From: Fidelibacterota bacterium
GTDB lineage: Bacteria; Fidelibacterota; Marinisomatia; Marinisomatales; S15-B10
Length of the DNA stretch: 64,000 nucleotides
NCBI GenBank assembly: GCA_046861655.1
Contig: JBHIAI010000002.1
Span: forward strand, 41,873 to 105,872
Direction: 5' to 3'
The stretch's first letter is position 1, and every line of letters starts with the position of its first letter. Below are positions 6,001-15,000 of this stretch, piece after piece. Position numbers: made by a program.

Positions 6001-9000
6001 GGAAATGGTGGCCGACCTCCTGGCCAGGGAACCCATTCTTCCCTCCCAACCTGCGGTGACCCCGGTTCCATCTTTGTCCACCCCACCCGTTTCCCGGGAG
6101 GAACAACCCGAACCGGAGGTGGAAGAAAAAGTCGTCGTTACCGCCCCTGCGGCGGACGGCTCTTTCAGCAAGATGAGATACATGAATGCCGTTTTCGCTT
6201 ACCAGAGGGAGGACTACCGGGTCGCCCTGGATCATTTTTCCCGGTTGTACCTGAAGGAGCAGGATCACACCACCAGAGGAAACGTGTTGTACTGGATTGC
6301 CGATTGCTACTATCAACTGGGAGATTACCGGAGAGCTCTCGACACCCTGGAGGAGATCAGATCCCTGGGCCGGTCGGACAAGCAGGATGACGCCCTGGTG
6401 TTGACCGGGCTGGCCTATCGCCAGATGGGTCGGGAAAACGAGGCCCTTGAGGCCTTTGATCATATCCTTCAGTACTATCCCGACAGCGAATACTTCAGGC
6501 TGGCCCGGATGGAGTTGCGGAAATCTCAGGAGTAGTCCGTATGGGTAAAACCCACAGATCCGGCGTGTTATTCCTGTTGATCTTGATGTCTGCGCCCCTG
6601 TTGGGCGTGACCCGGGTGGCGTTTACCCGTCCCGGACCCATGGTGAGAATTCCCATGACCCGCACCGTGCGGTCTCCCTATCTTTTCAGTGCAGGTTTCG
6701 GATCGGAGATTCACAATTTTTCCCCTTTCAATGTAGCCAAGGGTGTTTATTTCACCATGGACATATCCGAGAGATTCACCCTGGGATTCTCTTCAGGTCA
6801 GGGGGCGGACACCACCGCTCTGGAGAACATTCTGGAGTCCACCTATGCCCCCCCTGTTGAGTTCGGATTTCATTTCCAGCAGCGCGTTTACACCCGGGGA
6901 GACGTTTCTTTTAGTCTGGGCGTTCACGATGTGGTCTTTGAGAACGCAGATGACGGCTTAAGTCTCGACCCCAAGCAACTGTCTTTTTTCGGGATTATTG
7001 GTAGTGAGAAGTCCTTCGGTGATTATGATCTGCACACGTTTATGGGGTTTGGCACGGGAGGATTTGCCCAGACCCTCGCCACGGGTCAACCCGGAACCGC
7101 CGGGGAAGACACCGCCGGAACCCGGACCGGCGTATTCGCCGGGTTCTTGTTGAACACACCGTTCCTGCCCAAATGGGGTGGACTCGATTTTGTGGGTGAA
7201 TTCGACGGCTCAGGCATCAATGTGGGACTCCGCATCCCCCTTACCTCGGATTATCGCCTGAGTCTAGGATTCACCCACATAGAAAATTTGCCCGCTTTTT
7301 CCGAAGAACCTTATGGTCCCGATCACCCGGGTCTTGCGGTGGGGCTCGACATGTCGGTTCCGAGGGGACCGGTGGTCAGGGAGGTACCGGGTCTGCCCCG
7401 GCCCGGCGAGAGGGGCCCCGCCCCCGTTCCTGAAGCCGCCGTTCGTGACACAATCCTCTTGGCGGCCGATCTGGCAATGGCCAGACTCCGGGATTCTTTG
7501 CGGGTGGAAAAACACTACGTACGGAACCTGGCGACTCAGGTGGCCCGATTGGAGCAGAAAAGCCTCACCCTTGAAGATTCGGTGCGGGCGTTGAGGCTTG
7601 ATCGGGCGGTGAGTCAAAAGAACATCAACCTGGCCATGCAGCACCTGTCCCTTTCCCAGCGTTACGCCTTTGCGGGAGATTACCGGGCGGCTCTTCAGGA
7701 GGTGGAGACTGCCCTGGATTTGAACCCTAATCTGGCACTGGCTTACGCCCGGCGAGGGGCCATATACTATAAGTTGGGAGATATTCAACGGGCGACCATC
7801 AACTGGAATCTGGCTCTCCAGATGGATCCGGAATACGATGACGTGAGAAACATCTTGAAGGCTCTTCACGAGAACCGTTTGAAGGCCATCAGTTTCAACA
7901 AGGAGTAACGTTCCGTATGGACATAGCCACGCTGGTAGGCATCGTGATCGGTTTAGGTGCTATTGGAGGGGGAATCTTCGTGGCCGCTGCTGCCGCCGGT
8001 GCGGGAGCTGAAGGATTCGTTTCCCTGCCGAGTTTCCTGATCGTGTTCGGAGGCATGGTGGCCTCAGTCTCGGTGGCCTTTCCCCTGCCGGAAGTAATGA
8101 AACTGGGGGCGGCCATGGGGGCGGTCTTCAAGGGAGGTTTGATCAGGCTGGGCGAGCTGGTGGATGATGCGGTGGAACTGGCAGGAGTGGCAAGGAAGGG
8201 TGCAGCCGAACTGGAAAAGGGTGTGGGAGACATCCGAAATCCTTTCTTCAGGGATGGCGTCCAGATGGTGGTGGACGGCTATTCCGAAGAGGAATTGGTT
8301 GAGATTCTGGAAACCCGTATCAGCTACCGGGAAGTCCGGGAACGGTCCCAGGCAAGTCTGTTTCAGACCATGGGGACCATGGCGCCAGCGTGGGGGATGA
8401 TTGGGACGCTCATCGGACTGGTTATCATGCTCATGGGATTCGGTGGAGGGGGAGGAACAGAAGCTCTCGGTTCAGGCATGTCCGCCGCCCTGATTACCAC
8501 CTTCTACGGAGCTGTGTTTGCCAATCTGTTCTTTCTCCCCATGGCGGCCAAGCTCAACTCGCGAATCGCTCACACCAGCACCATGCAGGCCATGCTGGTG
8601 GAGGCCGCCCGTTTGATTCATCAGAAAAAACACCCCCTTATCGTCCGGGAGAGACTCAACTCCTTCATTCCTCCCAAGGAATGGAAAAGGGAAGGGGAGT
8701 AACCTGTGCCGAGAAAGCCTCAACCTCCTCCTCCTGAACCGGGTCTCCCCAATTGGTTTGCCACTTTTGCCGATATGATGACGCTTCTCCTGGCCTTTTT
8801 CGTTCTTCTGGCCGCCATTTCCACCATCGATCCCGTCAAACTTCAGGCCATGGCCGATTCCATGAAAAAATCAGTGGGAAAGAAAATAGAGATGGAGGGA
8901 GCCATGAGCCTGGCCGATATCGAGAAGGCGGTTAAGGTGATGGTGTCGCAGGAACAGATGGAGGAAGCTGTGGAAGTGACCACCAGCACCAAGGGTGTCA

Positions 9001-12000: not shown

Positions 12001-15000
12001 AGGTGTCTTTGTTCCGTCCTCGGTCAAGAAGCCTTCCCTGGGAAAGGACGGGAAGGCTTTTTCATATCTTTCCTGTGAGATTGGGAGCCCTGGGACTGAT
12101 GGCAGTGGTGTCCACGGGTGTCTCCGGAAAACCTTCCCCCGTTACTCCGGGGGGAGAGGCCGGTTGGGAACGATCCCTCGCAGCCTCGTTTTCCACCCAG
12201 GGCGGAAACACCAATCTGTCCAGTTACGCCCTGGCCTTTACGGTGGATTATACGGGGGATCTCCGTGTAGCAGGCGTGGATTTCAACGACAGTGAGTTCC
12301 ACGCGTTCGTCCGTCATAAACGGGGGAAACTGGACAGGTCTTTATATGAAGACGATGGGAGTGCGTCCTTGCTGTTTGACATCATGGCCCATGGCAAATT
12401 CTCCCCTTTTTTCCTTTCTTACTGGGCCTACGATTCCACCACGGGCCTCGATGAACGAATTCAGCTCGGAGCTGGAGGCAAGTACACCGTCGCCGGGGGA
12501 TTCTCCCTGAGCCTTGCCTATCTGTTTGAGGTGGAGGGCTATAAGGGTGAGTCCAGAACCCGGCAGTATCGATTGTCGTTTCGACCCAAGTACAAGAGGA
12601 CCTTCTCCAGCGGTGTGTCCCTTAACACCCTGGTATTCATCCAGCCCCTGGTCCTGGATCCCGGCAGATTTCTCATTGACAGCCATGTGAGTGTGACCGT
12701 TCCCACCCCGGTGAAGATACTGGCAGATGACAAGAAACTCGAGGTGACTCTGAGGTGGAGGGAACAATTCAACTCCCGTCCCCCCGGTTCGGTCCAGAAG
12801 CGGGACAGCGATCTTGACCTTGGCCTGATGATTTCGTTTTAGATCACGGGGTAGAGTAGTATGGAAAAGGAAATCCACGAGTTGAATCTGGAGGGAACCA
12901 CCTTCCGGACCATCATTGAACCGTTCAGAATCAAGTCTGTGGAACCCATCCGGATCACCACCCGGGATGAGAGGGAAACGATTCTTCAACAGGCCTTCTA
13001 CAATGTGTTTCTCATCCGGTCCAGGGACGTTATCATCGATCTTCTCACCGACAGCGGTACCAACGCCATGAGTTCGGACCAGTGGAGCGGAATAATGCGA
13101 GGCGATGAGACCTACGCCGGTAGTGAGAGCTATGGCCGTTTTGAGAATACGGTCAAGGATATCTTCGGATTCAAGCATGTCATTCCGACCCACCAGGGAA
13201 GAGCCGCCGAGAGGATTCTGTTTACGGTCATGTGCCGGCCGGGAGATGTGGTTCCCAACAACACCCACTTCGACACCACCCGGGCCAACGTAGAATTCCG
13301 GGGAGCGGTGGCGAAAGATCTCCCCATTGAAGAAGGGCGAGATCCCCAGAATCCCCATCCGTTCAAGGGGAACATGGACCTGGCAAAACTGGAGGCACTG
13401 ATCACCCGGGAGGGGAAGGAAAAGATTCCCCTTTGCATGGTGACGATCACCAACAACTCCGGGGGAGGCCAGCCGGTGTCCATGGAGAACCTACGGGCCA
13501 CGAAGACCCTGGTATCCCGGTATGGGATTCCCCTCTACCTGGACGCATGCCGGTTCGCTGAGAATGCTTATTTGATTAAGTTAAGGGAAAAAGGGTACGA
13601 GAATAAGCCGGTCAGGGAGATCGTGGCGGAAATGATGAGCTACGCCGACGGGTGCACCATGAGTGCCAAAAAGGACGGCCTGGCCAACATCGGAGGATTT
13701 CTCTGCACCAACGATGATCTTCTGGCCCGGCAGGAAAGGGACCTTCTGATTCTCACTGAAGGCTTTCCCACCTACGGGGGCATGGCGGGAAGGGACCTGG
13801 AGGCCATCGCCATCGGTCTGGAAGAGGCGATTCACGAAGATTATCTCATCTACCGGATTGCCGAAACCCAGTACTTGGGGAAACACCTGGAGGAAATAGG
13901 GTTTCCCATTGTGCAACCCCCGGGAGGTCACGCCGTATACGTGGATGCTAACGCCACGTTACCCCATATGGATCCTCTGGAATACCCCGGTCAGGCTCTG
14001 ACGGCTGAACTTTACCTTGCAGGGGGGATCAGGGCGGTGGAAATTGGGTCCGTCATGTTCGGGAAGGAAGACCCGGAGACGGGAAAGGAACAACCGGCGG
14101 CCATGGAGTTGGTTCGACTTGCCATTCCCCGGCGGGTGTACACGCAGAGTCATATCGATTATGTCATTGAGGTGTGCAAGAGAGTCTGGAAACGCCGGGA
14201 ATCTCTCAAAGGGTTTCGAATCACTGAACAGGCCCCGTTTCTTCGTCACTTTACCGCTAAGTTTGAACCCCTTGATTAGCCGGCGATGCCAGGTACCAGA
14301 AAAATCCATCATCTCCTGATCGCGGGTGCCTTGATTCTGACCGCGTGCACCGAGTCCCCGAGAAAGTTTCACGACCGGGCCTATGTTGCCGACACCCACA
14401 ATGATGTCCTTCTGCGGGTCATGAGGGGGGAGGACATTGCCGTGAGAACTTCATCGGGGCATTCCGACGTTCCGAGGTTGGAAGAGGGGGGCGTCGACAT
14501 GCAGGTGTTTTCGGTCTGGGTGGACCCGGCCACCTATGGGTCTGGCAGCTCTTTTCAAAGGGCGAACGAGATGATCGATTCTCTGGTCAGCCTTGCGGAA
14601 AGAATTCCCCAGCGGCTGGAGATTGCCCGCTCCTACGACGATCTGGAACGGCTCGAGCGGGAAGGAAAACTGGCGGCTGTCATTGGCGTTGAAGGGGGAC
14701 ACGCCATCGAAAACAGCCTGGAAAAGCTAAAGGTTCTTCACCAGCGGGGAATGCGCTATCTTACCGTCACCTGGAATAACTCCCTGGATTGGGCCAGCTC
14801 AGCCAAGGATGAGACAAAGGGAGATATGGGACCCTTCGCCGGACTCAATAAGTTCGGCAGGGAGGTGATCCGTTCCTGCAATGACCTGGGGGTGATGGTG
14901 GATGTGTCACACGCGGGGGAACAGACCTTCTGGGATATCATAGGGAGCACCACCCGTCCTGTTATCGCCTCCCACTCTTCCGTGTATGCCATCTGTCCCC

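What a model noticed while it worked through the whole genome (the two positions that open the first line are those of the whole stretch)
6541..12002. Flagellum-independent MotAB-FliF-FliG rotor operon with an outer-membrane barrel partner
A five-gene operon (g00618-g00622) encodes an outer-membrane beta-barrel/coiled-coil/TPR protein, MotA, MotB, a cut-down FliF and a full FliG (N, M and C domains). The FliF keeps only the RBM3 ring-building domain, a periplasmic coiled coil of about 150 residues and the C-terminal FliG-binding helices. The genome has no other flagellar gene (no FlhA, rod, hook, filament or FliM/N), so this is a minimal stator and rotor that is not part of a flagellum. In flagellated members of the phylum the operon coexists with a second, canonical FliG on the same contig as FlhA, so it is a separate paralogous system and not a decaying flagellar remnant.
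Evidence so far: Domains: pfam.tsv gives FliG_N/M/C on g00622, YscJ_FliF_C on g00621 (aa 48-218), MotA_ExbB on g00619 and MotB_plug+OmpA on g00620. No other flagellar Pfam family is found in the 1962 genes. No FlhA: the six-frame FHIPEP (FlhA) search gave 0 hits in G000 and hits over the cut-off in 19 of 61 phylum genomes. None of the 8 sampled genomes of the order was over the cut-off. Conservation: the FliF-like protein is in 45 of 61 phylum genomes. The order motA-motB-fliF'-fliG is kept in 9 of 9 loci. A g00618 homologue is present upstream in 67 of 80 relatives' loci. Paralogy: the flagellated genomes G016, G037, G041 and G010 each have the operon's FliG (42-44% identity) and a second FliG (24-27% ident [...]
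(Added by a program. Inside this text positions count along the whole contig: contig position 41,873 is position 1 of the stretch shown here. "Call 12" and the like, gene names such as g00115 and contig names such as C1 are that model's own, and its searches are not shown. The text may have been shortened before it was handed on; [...] marks where a part breaks off. The agent that wrote the report below was given it as the finding of a first reader that could run no searches.)

Follow-up and report, generated by a model that had tools for sequence, protein, structure and literature searches.

The report
Flagellar motor core without a flagellum
A marine bacterium with no flagellum genes keeps, in one conserved seven-gene operon, the torque-making heart of the flagellar motor joined to new outer-envelope proteins, which points to an undescribed ion-driven rotary machine whose job is still unknown.

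Summary
Window 6541-12002 encodes an outer-membrane barrel/long-helix/TPR protein, a flagellar-type MotA and MotB, a cut-down FliF (RBM3 only) and a three-domain FliG. The conserved unit is larger than reported. It has seven genes (4518-12002): a secreted or lipoprotein and a CpoB-like TPR protein lie upstream, behind a promoter-like site.

The genome (92.8% complete) shows no FlhA, FliP, FliM/N, rod, flagellin or FliF N-part. None of 29 genomes of the same order has FlhA, yet 22 of them have the FliF-like gene. Across 151 genomes of the phylum (SAR406/Marinimicrobia/Fidelibacterota), 95 have it. 24 genomes hold both the operon and a separate canonical FliG/FlhA set.

The genes are under strong purifying selection (dN/dS 0.035-0.22). 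The stator-rotor contact residues are kept, but FliG's FliM-binding EHPQR motif is lost.

Relatives outside the phylum are fused FliF-FliG proteins next to MotAB and a TPR protein. They include a cultured Bermanella that also has a normal flagellum.

This is a separate, functional, non-flagellar rotor-stator system. Rotation and its load are inferred, not shown. My literature searches found no paper on it. This scan noted the same operon four times before, on other DNA.

The parts
4435..4463 (+). Promoter-like site (TTGACA, 17 nt spacer, TACAAT; 11 of 12 matches) just upstream of the first operon gene
   Evidence: This is a consensus match only. It is the best of 10 sites in 3000-16000 (shuffles give a mean of 6.1). 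The upstream neighbour 3406-4359 is on the opposite strand.
4518..5639 (+). Secreted protein or lipoprotein (373 aa): signal sequence, CarboxypepD_reg beta-sandwich, long helix, small beta domain, C-terminal beta-sandwich
   Evidence: Pfam CarboxypepD_reg at residues 29-109. AlphaFold model pLDDT 79.7. The C-terminal 240 residues are conserved in 18 of 20 diverse loci. No PDB or family match for that part. Atlas clusters come only from Fidelibacterota. Most relatives carry a Cys after the signal sequence (consensus).
5621..6535 (+). Periplasmic TPR protein (304 aa): signal sequence, coiled coil, Pro-rich linker, C-terminal TPR_6/YfiO-like TPR domain (CpoB-like layout)
   Evidence: Pfam TPR_6 4.6e-13 and YfiO 2.1e-5. 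Sequence. A homologue was detected in 16 of 20 diverse loci, often in two copies.
6541..7908 (+). Outer-membrane beta-barrel (about residues 47-274), 79-residue helix (299-377), terminal TPR domain (381-454)
   Evidence: AlphaFold model, pLDDT 77. Foldseek matches to FapF, OMPLA, PorV and a designed 12-strand barrel, with TM by target 0.37-0.64. Pfam TPR. Present in 18 of 20 diverse loci. dN/dS 0.086.
7917..8702 (+). MotA, flagellar-type stator A subunit (261 aa)
   Evidence: Aligns over its full length to solved flagellar MotA/PomA (9lu9 1.8e-40, 8ucs 1.7e-38, 8bri 1.3e-30). R93 is invariant in 19 of 19 and E100 is kept in at least 90% of family members. dN/dS 0.035.
8706..9458 (+). MotB, stator B subunit (250 aa): membrane helix with Asp23, plug, OmpA-like peptidoglycan-binding domain
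   Evidence: Pfam MotB_plug and OmpA. PDB matches 6ysf 3e-28 and PomB 1.6e-25. D23 is invariant in 19 of 19.
9486..11063 (+). FliF-like ring protein (525 aa): N-terminal hydrophobic segment, RBM3 (about 27-218), 166-residue helical linker, membrane helix (384-402), cytoplasmic tail with a conserved C-terminal motif
   Evidence: No YscJ_FliF (RBM1/2) match in this protein or anywhere in the genome.
11073..12002 (+). FliG paralogue (309 aa) with N, M and C domains; torque-helix charges kept, EHPQR motif lost
12003..12842 (+). DUF481 outer-membrane-type protein (279 aa), abutting fliG; membership of the system is uncertain
   Evidence: Pfam DUF481 1.8e-5. Detected only in the three closest of 18 loci (L001-L003) and in none of 20 diverse loci.

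Best explanation
The seven-gene operon at 4518-12002 encodes a self-contained, flagellum-independent rotor-stator machine of the cell envelope.

**Proposed mechanism.**
- MotA5MotB2-type stator units are anchored to peptidoglycan by MotB's OmpA-like domain. They conduct ions past MotB Asp23 and push, through the conserved MotA R93/E100 surface, on the torque helix of a FliG paralogue.
- FliG sits, through its N domain, on the cytoplasmic tail of a cut-down FliF. The periplasmic RBM3 domain of that FliF builds a ring.
- The RBM1/2 domains that house the export gate are missing, as are the C-ring, rod, hook and filament. The ring would therefore be an axle-less rotor with no switch.
- Its periplasmic side is an RBM3 ring on a helical linker of 120-207 residues. 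This faces three secreted partners encoded in the same operon: a lipoprotein, one or two CpoB-like TPR proteins, and an outer-membrane barrel carrying a helix of about 12 nm tipped by a TPR module. The partners either scaffold the stators or receive the mechanical output at the outer membrane.

**Shown.** Gene content and homology. Conservation, selection and key residues. Absence of other flagellar genes. Coexistence with true flagella. Relatives in other phyla.

**Inferred.** Ring assembly, FliF-FliG binding, rotation, and any coupling to the outer membrane. The physiological output is unknown. Candidates are surface movement, export, or outer-membrane handling.
For: **Parts and homology.**
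- Domains are as stated.
- MotA aligns end to end with solved flagellar stators. MotB has the plug, the Asp and a peptidoglycan-binding domain.
- The FliF-like profile hits solved FliF RBM3. FliG matches T. maritima FliG at 1e-21.

**Functional residues.**
- MotA R93 is kept in 19 of 19 and E100 in at least 90% of family members. MotB D23 is kept in 19 of 19.
- In FliG, K242 is invariant and E265 nearly so. A basic residue stands at the position aligned to E. coli R281, and the Arg after the helix is kept.

**No switch complex.**
- In operon FliGs the H, the Q and the R of EHPQR are each kept in 0 of 17, while the E is kept in 17 of 17.
- Canonical FliGs keep EHPQ in 10 of 11 and the R in 11 of 11.
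- No FliM/N is found in the genome.

**Not a flagellum.** Six hallmark families give 0 matches in G000. FlhA is found in 0 of 29 genomes of the order, while the FliF-like gene is in 22 of those 29.

**Independent system.** 24 genomes carry both the operon and a canonical FliG plus FlhA. In a FliG M+C tree the canonical FliGs form one side (97/99). Operon FliGs group with three fused forms (100/99).

**Functional, not decaying.** dN/dS is 0.035-0.22 against 0.074 for a housekeeping neighbour. The gene order is kept in 18 of 18 close loci and 18 of 20 diverse loci.

**FliG_N is the FliF-binding part.** Split forms keep FliG_N. In the fused RBM3-FliG proteins Pfam's strong matches are FliG_M and FliG_C; the only FliG_N matches are weak and overlap the FliG_M stretch.

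**Shared envelope partner.** The terminal TPR module is 35-36% identical to the TPR partners of two other rotor-stator modules.
Against: - No experiment or image shows a ring, rotation or any phenotype.
- The Pfam match of the FliF-like protein is only 5 bits over its cut-off.
- The similarity of the C-terminal tail to the FliG-binding end of FliF rests on a conserved motif. A stretch aligned to Vibrio FliF is not significant on its own.
- In G000's order the FliG torque helix is four residues shorter than in other families and in canonical FliG. This could change or weaken stator contact.
- The barrel assignment rests on one model of moderate confidence, with weak fold scores.
- An axle-less rotor has no obvious load, and I found no direct link between the rotor and the envelope partners.
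- Two lineages of the phylum lack the operon: f3 (0 of 7) and g31 (0 of 22). It is therefore dispensable.
Confidence: 0.7

Rival explanations
1. The proteins assemble but do not turn. The FliF-like/FliG ring is a static platform or sensor, and MotAB acts on it as a gated ion channel or brake. The complex would regulate an envelope process such as polysaccharide secretion or signalling.
For: A related module in the same phylum (L043) sits inside a polysaccharide-export locus next to a response regulator. The machine has no axle or known load. The torque helix is shortened by four residues in this order.
Against: The residues that matter specifically for torque transfer are conserved: MotA R93/E100, the FliG torque-helix charges and MotB Asp23 with its plug. 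MotA is the most constrained gene of the operon (dN/dS 0.035). All solved relatives of this stator type are rotary motors (established knowledge of MotAB/PomAB structures; matches).
Confidence: 0.15
2. A Tol-Pal-like or Ton-like energy transducer. The operon's job would be to tether or remodel the outer membrane, for example at division, with the CpoB-like TPR protein and the outer-membrane TPR protein as effectors. The FliG/FliF ring would be only an adaptor.
For: The 5621-6535 protein has the CpoB layout, a coiled coil plus TPR_6/YfiO-like TPR. All three accessory proteins are secreted. Apart from the two MotAB-type pairs, the only MotA/ExbB-family unit found in G000 is an ExbB-ExbD-ExbD-TonB set. 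TolB_N gives only a borderline 22.4-bit match.
Against: The B subunit is a MotB with plug and OmpA domain, not an ExbD/TolR. No TolA, TolB or Pal lies in the operon. Tol and Ton systems have no FliG or FliF partner. Streamlined relatives (f3) lack the operon entirely.
Confidence: 0.1
3. A decaying remnant of an ancestral flagellar gene cluster, or a piece of a real flagellum whose other genes were missed in an incomplete MAG.
For: The genome is 92.8% complete in 198 contigs. 38 of 151 genomes of the phylum do have FlhA, so flagella exist in the phylum.
Against: Six flagellar families are absent from G000. FlhA is absent from 29 of 29 genomes of the order, most 94-99% complete. dN/dS is 0.035-0.22. 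The order is kept phylum-wide with non-flagellar partner genes. Flagellated members carry the operon in addition to a canonical FliG near FlhA (24 genomes). The operon FliGs form their own group in the tree.
Confidence: 0.03

Closest known systems
Torque-generating core of the bacterial flagellar motor (FliF MS-ring, FliG, MotA5B2/PomA5B2 stator)
   Same: The four proteins are homologous. MotA aligns over its full length to solved flagellar stators. MotB has the plug, the Asp and a peptidoglycan-binding domain. FliG has N, M and C domains with torque-helix charges. The FliF RBM3 ring domain and a conserved C-terminal tail are present.
   Different: No export gate, C-ring, rod, hook or filament genes. 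FliF lacks RBM1/2 and gains a long helical linker. FliG lacks the FliM-binding EHPQR motif. The genes are co-transcribed with an outer-membrane barrel-TPR protein, TPR proteins and a lipoprotein. The system coexists as a paralogue with real flagella.
Natural RBM3-FliG fusion modules (fusion protein + MotA + MotB + TPR protein), e.g. Bermanella sp. R86531 NZ_CP139003.1, an Elusimicrobiota MAG protein MFA5859241.1, and locus L043 in this phylum
   Same: Same core parts. The fusion's FliG M+C region groups with the operon FliGs (100/99). The TPR partner is 35-36% identical to the terminal TPR of 6541-7908. The Bermanella module coexists with a canonical FliG and FlhA.
   Different: Ring protein and FliG are one polypeptide without a FliG_N domain. 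RBM3 is followed directly by the membrane helix, with no long linker. In Bermanella the TPR is a separate 210-aa protein, and the neighbouring 377-aa protein, of no known family, shows no detectable similarity to the barrel. As far as my searches show, these modules are not described in print either.
Other non-flagellar 5:2 ion-driven motors: ExbBD-TonB, TolQR-TolA, GldLM, AglRQS, ZorAB (listed from my own knowledge and the review text seen)
   Same: An inner-membrane MotA/ExbB-family motor is used to do work on the outer envelope. Outer-membrane and TPR partners are encoded nearby.
   Different: Those systems act directly on an elongated periplasmic partner and have no FliG or FliF ring. Here the stator is of the flagellar type (plug, OmpA domain, large cytoplasmic torque interface) and faces a FliG rotor.
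Flagellar leftovers in non-motile bacteria (Buchnera basal bodies, Lysobacter FT3SS; seen as search listings and abstracts)
   Same: A subset of flagellar genes is kept without a filament and put to another use.
   Different: Those keep the type III export apparatus and basal body and lose the motor function. This system keeps only the motor and has no export apparatus.

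Membership tests
Bacterial flagellum (complete organelle) | Type III export gate (FlhA, FliP) | tested here: not met
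   FHIPEP gives 0 matches and FliP 0 matches in G000. FlhA is found in 0 of 29 genomes of the order.
Bacterial flagellum (complete organelle) | Axial parts: rod/hook proteins and flagellin | tested here: not met
   Flg_bb_rod gives 0 and Flagellin_N gives 0 in G000.
Bacterial flagellum (complete organelle) | C-ring switch proteins FliM/FliN | tested here: not met
   FliMN_C gives 0 in G000. FliG's FliM-binding EHPQR motif is lost in 17 of 17 operon FliGs. FliM's own Pfam family was not searched separately.
Flagellar-type stator MotA/MotB (as opposed to ExbBD/TolQR) | A subunit with a large cytoplasmic domain carrying the conserved Arg/Glu pair that contacts FliG | tested here: met
   Full-length alignment to 9lu9, 8ucs and PomA. 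R93 is kept in 19 of 19 and E100 in at least 90%. The mapping to E. coli R90/E98 follows the alignment, with residue numbers quoted from PMC12505986 (passage seen).
Flagellar-type stator MotA/MotB (as opposed to ExbBD/TolQR) | B subunit with the ion-binding Asp in its membrane helix, a plug helix and an OmpA-like peptidoglycan-binding domain | tested here: met
   MotB_plug 66 bits and OmpA 53 bits. D23 is invariant in 19 of 19. Aligned to 6ysf/8ucs MotB and to PomB.
FliG | N, M and C domains | tested here: met
   All three Pfam families are over their cut-offs. The M and C domains align to T. maritima FliG 1lkv at 1e-21.
FliG | Charged torque helix in the C domain | tested here: met
   K242 is invariant and E265 nearly so. 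A K or R stands at the R281-aligned position. However, G000's order and some other families carry a 4-residue deletion in the helix.
FliG | EHPQR motif of the M domain (FliM binding) | tested here: not met
   Operon FliGs keep H in 0 of 17, Q in 0 of 17 and R in 0 of 17. Canonical FliGs keep EHPQ in 10 of 11 and R in 11 of 11. The motif's role is recalled from the literature.
FliF (MS-ring protein) | RBM1 and RBM2 (Pfam YscJ_FliF) | tested here: not met
   No match in the protein or in the genome.
FliF (MS-ring protein) | RBM3 ring-building domain (Pfam YscJ_FliF_C) | tested here: met
   29.1 bits against a cut-off of 23.8. The family profile hits solved FliF RBM3 at 1e-7 to 2e-5. An exhaustive profile search finds canonical FliFs matched at their residues of about 230-430.
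FliF (MS-ring protein) | C-terminal cytoplasmic helices that bind FliG_N | tested here: inconclusive
   The motif E.KS.RQSVVSMSVGQP..AT.I...WL is conserved in 20 of 20. It aligns to the Vibrio FliF C-terminus without significance. A similar motif is kept in the Bermanella fusion. Binding was not tested.
FliF (MS-ring protein) | Two membrane helices flanking the periplasmic part | tested here: inconclusive
   The second helix is clear (384-402). The N-terminal hydrophobic segment is followed by Gln in 19 of 20 family members. It may be a cleaved signal peptide rather than a membrane anchor. No signal-peptide predictor was available.
Tol-Pal system | TolQ with an ExbD-family TolR, plus TolA, TolB and Pal | tested here: not met
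   The B subunit is MotB-type, not ExbD. No TolB or Pal domain is in the operon. Only the CpoB-like TPR layout is shared.
Bacteroidota gliding/T9SS motor (GldLM) | GldL/GldM motor with GldKNO ring and SprA translocon | not tested
   These families were not searched for. The weak fold match of the barrel to PorV (TM by target 0.37) is not evidence of membership.

The most novel reading that the evidence does not exclude
This is one form of a widespread, undescribed class of rotary envelope machine. A ring of FliF-RBM3 and FliG, with no axle and no switch, is spun by flagellar-type stators (two kinds in this genome). Its torque is passed through a periplasmic palisade of long FliF helices and TPR adaptors to an outer-membrane barrel, to move or gate something at the cell surface.

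The same core occurs split in Fidelibacterota and fused in Elusimicrobiota, in Bermanella (Gammaproteobacteria) and in a polysaccharide-export locus, always beside true flagella or without them. The rotor-stator module therefore has an evolutionary life of its own, apart from the type III export apparatus. It would be either an early offshoot or a relic of the stage before the two were joined in the flagellum.
Probability: 0.4. Interest if true: 0.9.

Novelty: new variant of a known kind. Interest (0 to 1): 0.8.

Why it matters
The flagellar motor is the textbook rotary nanomachine. FliG and FliF are known only as flagellar parts.

A conserved, selected FliF/FliG/MotAB set that works without export gate, rod, hook, filament or switch would be a second use of that rotor. 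It sits in one of the most abundant bacterial groups of the deep ocean, and in fused form in other phyla.

It bears on a long-standing question: could the torque-generating module exist and be useful apart from the type III secretion core? It also makes that question testable, because a cultured Bermanella strain with a complete genome carries the fused form next to a normal flagellum.

[quoted passage not shown] This operon is a concrete, conserved case.

Tried and rejected
**Complex prediction.** I sent the RBM3 domain, the MotB periplasmic part and, as partner, the helix-TPR end of 6541-7908. The verdict was 'no answer' (score 0.00 against a mark of 0.32). It is no evidence either way.

**RNA runs.** No RNA holder was listed for 6541-12002, so nothing can be said about expression.

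**Pattern scans with whole alignments.** All three failed because no stretch was conserved enough. A sub-alignment of nine FliGs worked. It returned 36 loci, all those with an organism name being Marinimicrobia/Fidelibacterota. This operon type was therefore not found outside the phylum by that pattern-limited method.

**Single fusion proteins.** P0130 and P0127 found nothing in the species genomes. P0140 found Bermanella.

**Lipoprotein 4518-5639.** PDB sequence and fold searches gave only generic prealbumin-like beta-sandwich hits. The Atlas gave only unnamed Fidelibacterota clusters.

**Barrel comparison.** A profile comparison of the barrel with the Bermanella 377-aa neighbour found no similarity (probability under 1%).

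**Tol-Pal replacement.** TolB_N gave one borderline match (22.4 bits), which I did not pursue. The Tol status of the genome is unresolved.

**Literature.** Seven searches found no paper on a non-flagellar FliG/FliF system. The library lacks most subscription journals, and supplements were not read.

Full report
**What is there.** Window 4518-12002 holds seven tightly packed genes on the + strand, with gaps of -19 to 27 bases. Pfam names them as follows:
- a CarboxypepD_reg protein (4518-5639);
- a TPR_6/YfiO-like TPR protein (5621-6535);
- a protein with a C-terminal TPR (6541-7908);
- MotA (7917-8702);
- MotB with plug and OmpA domain (8706-9458);
- a protein whose residues 48-218 match YscJ_FliF_C, the RBM3 part of FliF (9486-11063);
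- a FliG with N, M and C domains (11073-12002).

A DUF481 gene abuts fliG (12003-12842). The best promoter-like site of the region (11 of 12 consensus positions) lies at 4435-4463, just before the first gene and after a divergently oriented neighbour. The rest of the window is housekeeping, including purine synthesis and PEP-utilising enzymes.

**Organism and conservation.** Related loci carry titles of Marinimicrobia, Neomarinimicrobiota or Fidelibacterota, that is SAR406.
- In 18 close loci the order motA-motB-fliF-like-fliG is kept in 18 of 18. The barrel-TPR gene precedes it in all 17 that have flank. The two first genes precede it in all 15 that have flank.
- I then chose 20 loci from 20 families or genera, picked from the hits. 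Their presence is therefore not an independent count, but their gene order is informative. 18 keep lipoprotein, barrel-TPR, motA, motB, fliF-like and fliG in order. 16 show at least one copy of the TPR gene.
- Against the closest relative (L001) dN/dS is 0.035 for motA, 0.078 for fliG, 0.086 for the barrel-TPR gene, 0.092 for motB, 0.10 for the fliF-like gene, 0.11 for the lipoprotein gene and 0.22 for the TPR gene. The neighbouring beta-eliminating lyase gives 0.074. dS is 0.7-1.1, close to saturation.

**No flagellum.** G000 is 2.06 Mb in 198 contigs and 92.78% complete.
- Six-frame family searches found no FlhA, FliF N-part, FliM/N C-domain, rod protein, FliP or flagellin. Each search rang in four flagellated control genomes.
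- The only FliG_C match over the cut-off is the operon's. A 22.5-bit match on contig 93 is below the cut-off.
- In a sample of 151 genomes of the phylum, FlhA is over the cut-off in 38, but in none of the 29 genomes of G000's order, most of them 94-99% complete.
- The FliF-like protein is found in 95 of 151 and in 22 of those 29. The exceptions in the order are seven genomes of about 1 Mb (family f3). Elsewhere genus g31 lacks it, 0 of 22.

**A paralogue, not a remnant.** FliG_C matches in the phylum fall into two classes.
- 35 genomes have a match of 132-152 bits in an ORF of 338-374 aa. It often shares a contig with FlhA, as in G001 C33, G016 C11, G037 C5, G041 C4 and G010 C5.
- The operon type scores 49-107 bits, in ORFs of about 310 aa, next to the FliF-like gene.
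- 24 of the 35 genomes have both. 24 of the 38 FlhA-positive genomes carry the operon (my cross-reading).
- In a maximum-likelihood tree of the M+C region (37 rows) the ten canonical FliGs of the phylum plus E. coli form one side of a branch (97/99). The 17 operon FliGs form a group (92/78).

**Are the working parts intact?**
- MotA aligns over its whole length with solved flagellar stators: Paenibacillus MotA 1.8e-40, Clostridium MotA 1.7e-38, Vibrio PomA 1.3e-30.
- The Arg and Glu of its cytoplasmic face, aligned to the E. coli R90/E98 pair (numbers from PMC12505986, passage seen), are R93 (19 of 19) and E100 (at least 90%).
- MotB has the plug, the OmpA-like domain with its GHTD...NWELS..RA motif, and Asp23 in the membrane helix (19 of 19).
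- FliG aligns with T. maritima FliG at 1e-21. It keeps K242 (invariant), a basic residue at the R281-aligned position, E265 (nearly invariant) and the Arg after the helix.
- Two differences stand out. First, the EHPQR motif of the M domain, which I recall as the FliM-binding site, is gone. Operon FliGs keep the E in 17 of 17, but the H, the Q and the R in 0 of 17 each. Canonical FliGs keep EHPQ in 10 of 11 and the R in 11 of 11. This fits the absence of FliM/N. Second, in G000's order and a few other families the torque helix is four residues shorter ('KKQAMYEP----VE' against 'RTQIILEDEMKLLEGPQPRRKVE').

**The FliF-like protein.**
- A profile of 20 family members hits solved FliF only over RBM3 (9yh6 1e-7, Vibrio 8z5s 6e-6, Salmonella 6scn 2e-5). 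No RBM1/2 family matches.
- All 20 members share one plan. There is an N-terminal hydrophobic segment, then RBM3 split by a variable acidic insert around an invariant P-G. A charged linker poor in Pro and Gly follows: 120-207 residues, 166 here, 45 in one member. Then come a membrane helix and a tail of 82-163 residues ending in the motif E.KS.RQSVVSMSVGQP..AT.I...WL.
- In 19 of 20 the hydrophobic segment is followed by Gln. From memory, a Gln after the signal-peptidase site is typical of the Bacteroidota relatives. If the segment is cleaved, the mature protein is anchored only by the later helix, and the RBM3 ring could stand up to about 25 nm from the inner membrane on a palisade of helices. 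If it is kept, the linker must fold back. I could not decide this.

**The envelope partners.**
- The AlphaFold model of 6541-7908 (pLDDT 77) has a beta-rich domain at 47-274, a disordered stretch, one helix at 299-377 and a TPR domain at 381-454. Foldseek's best non-TPR matches are outer-membrane barrels: FapF, OMPLA, PorV and a designed 12-strand barrel. TM by target is 0.37-0.64 at 7-11% identity, which supports the fold class but no family.
- The first gene's product has a signal sequence, a prealbumin-like sandwich (missing in most relatives), a long helix and two beta domains with no known relatives.
- The second is a secreted coiled-coil plus TPR protein with the layout of CpoB.

**Relatives outside the phylum.**
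- An exhaustive profile search with RBM3 alone gave 1272 proteins at E up to 1e-3 and 45 at E up to 1e-30. Of the best 150 I scanned 30 with Pfam, none from the top-scoring group. Nine of the 30 have RBM3 at the N-terminus and FliG_M (seven of them also FliG_C) at the C-terminus. Five more are canonical FliFs cut at the N-terminus.
- One of the fusions is an NCBI Elusimicrobiota MAG protein, MFA5859241.1.
- Three fusions (P0088, P0109, P0140) form a clade with the operon FliGs (100/99).
- Relatives of P0140 lie in Bermanella genomes, including the complete genome of strain R86531. There the order is a 377-aa protein of no known family, a 210-aa TPR protein, the 636-aa fusion, MotA and MotB, set between housekeeping genes.
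- The Bermanella TPR is 36% identical to the terminal TPR of 6541-7908 (3e-13). The 377-aa protein shows no similarity to the barrel.
- The same Bermanella genome has a canonical FliG (146 bits) and FlhA.
- Inside the phylum, locus L043 shows a third form. It has a response regulator, a 461-aa RBM3-FliG fusion, MotA, MotB, a FG-GAP/CHU_C protein and a barrel-TPR protein whose TPR is 35% identical to ours. All of this lies in a polysaccharide-export locus.
- The fusions keep no convincing FliG_N. The Bermanella fusion keeps a motif like the FliF-like tail. This is what one expects if FliG_N exists to hold the tail of the ring protein.

**A second stator.** G000 has three MotA/ExbB-family genes: the operon's, an ExbB-ExbD-ExbD-TonB set, and on contig 192 a second flagellar-type MotA (34% identical over its full length) with a MotB and a DUF4352 protein. 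Orthologues of this MotA at 45% identity or more occur across the phylum. None was found in f3 (0 of 7) or g31 (0 of 22), the groups that also lack the operon. In G029, G011 and G058 it lies 7-8 kb from the operon. It may be a second stator for the same rotor. That is a lead, not a finding.

**Reading.** The evidence supports a functional, flagellum-independent rotor-stator system. The step from 'homologous and conserved' to 'it rotates' is inference from the kept torque residues and from what is known of MotAB and FliG. The load is unknown. I put 0.7 on a rotary envelope machine, 0.15 on a non-rotary regulatory complex, 0.1 on a Tol-like envelope role as the main function, and 0.03 on a remnant or assembly gap.

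**Prior knowledge.**
- Seven literature searches found no description.
- I saw passages of two papers. PMC12505986 classifies MotAB and its non-flagellar homologues, and in the passages I saw mentions FliG only as the flagellar partner. Preprint 10.1101/2024.12.05.626484 notes rotor proteins in 11% of non-motile species and leaves their function open.
- Public databases name the protein 'FliG C-terminal domain-containing protein', 'flagellar motor switch protein FliG' or 'hypothetical protein'.
- This scan's own earlier notes describe the same SAR406 operon on four other windows, and fused forms in Nitrospirota, Elusimicrobiota, Balneolaceae and an EPS locus. I re-derived the SAR406 findings here and confirmed an Elusimicrobiota fusion and an EPS-locus fusion. 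I did not test the Nitrospirota or Balneolaceae claims.

Noticed in passing
G000 contig 192, 9769-10581 (-) and neighbours (locus L081:5263-7582); outside the window: A second flagellar-type MotA (271 aa, 34% identical to the operon's) lies with a MotB (plug and OmpA) and a DUF4352 protein, in a genome without flagella. Orthologues occur across the phylum but not in the two groups that lack the operon (f3 0 of 7, g31 0 of 22). In G029, G011 and G058 it lies 7-8 kb from the operon.
   Followed up: partly
L043:2737-15590 (G034 contig 29): A different rotor-stator module sits inside a polysaccharide-export locus (Wzz/AAA_31, LytR_cpsA_psr, Poly_export). It has a response regulator, a 461-aa RBM3-membrane helix-FliG(M,C) fusion, MotA, MotB, a 1123-aa FG-GAP/CHU_C protein and a barrel-TPR protein.
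   Followed up: partly
L101:6214-11395 (Bermanella sp. R86531, NZ_CP139003.1): A five-gene module in a cultured gammaproteobacterium: an unknown 377-aa protein, a TPR protein, a 636-aa RBM3-FliG fusion, MotA and MotB. The same genome has a canonical FliG and FlhA. It is an experimentally tractable relative.
   Followed up: partly
window 11835-11870 (FliG residues about 255-266): The FliG torque helix is four residues shorter in G000's order and in a few other families than in the remaining operon FliGs and in canonical FliG. The effect on stator contact is unknown.
   Followed up: no
G115:C77:28275-29804, G103:C31:16040-17395, G039:C3:50748-51599: The FliF-like matches in these three genomes contain one in-frame stop each (TAG, TGA, TGA). 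These could be sequencing errors, pseudogenes or recoding. I did not examine them.
   Followed up: no
window 387-3179 (+): A 930-aa ORF upstream of the operon has no Pfam match at E 1e-5.
   Followed up: no
G030 contig 22, 12730-13065 (locus L040): This FlhA-positive genome has only one FliG_C match, of 58.7 bits in a 345-aa ORF. No operon protein matches the fetched locus. Its FliG may be unusual.
   Followed up: no
window 12003-12842 (+): A DUF481 outer-membrane-type gene starts at the base after the fliG stop. It is found only in the three closest relatives' loci.
   Followed up: partly
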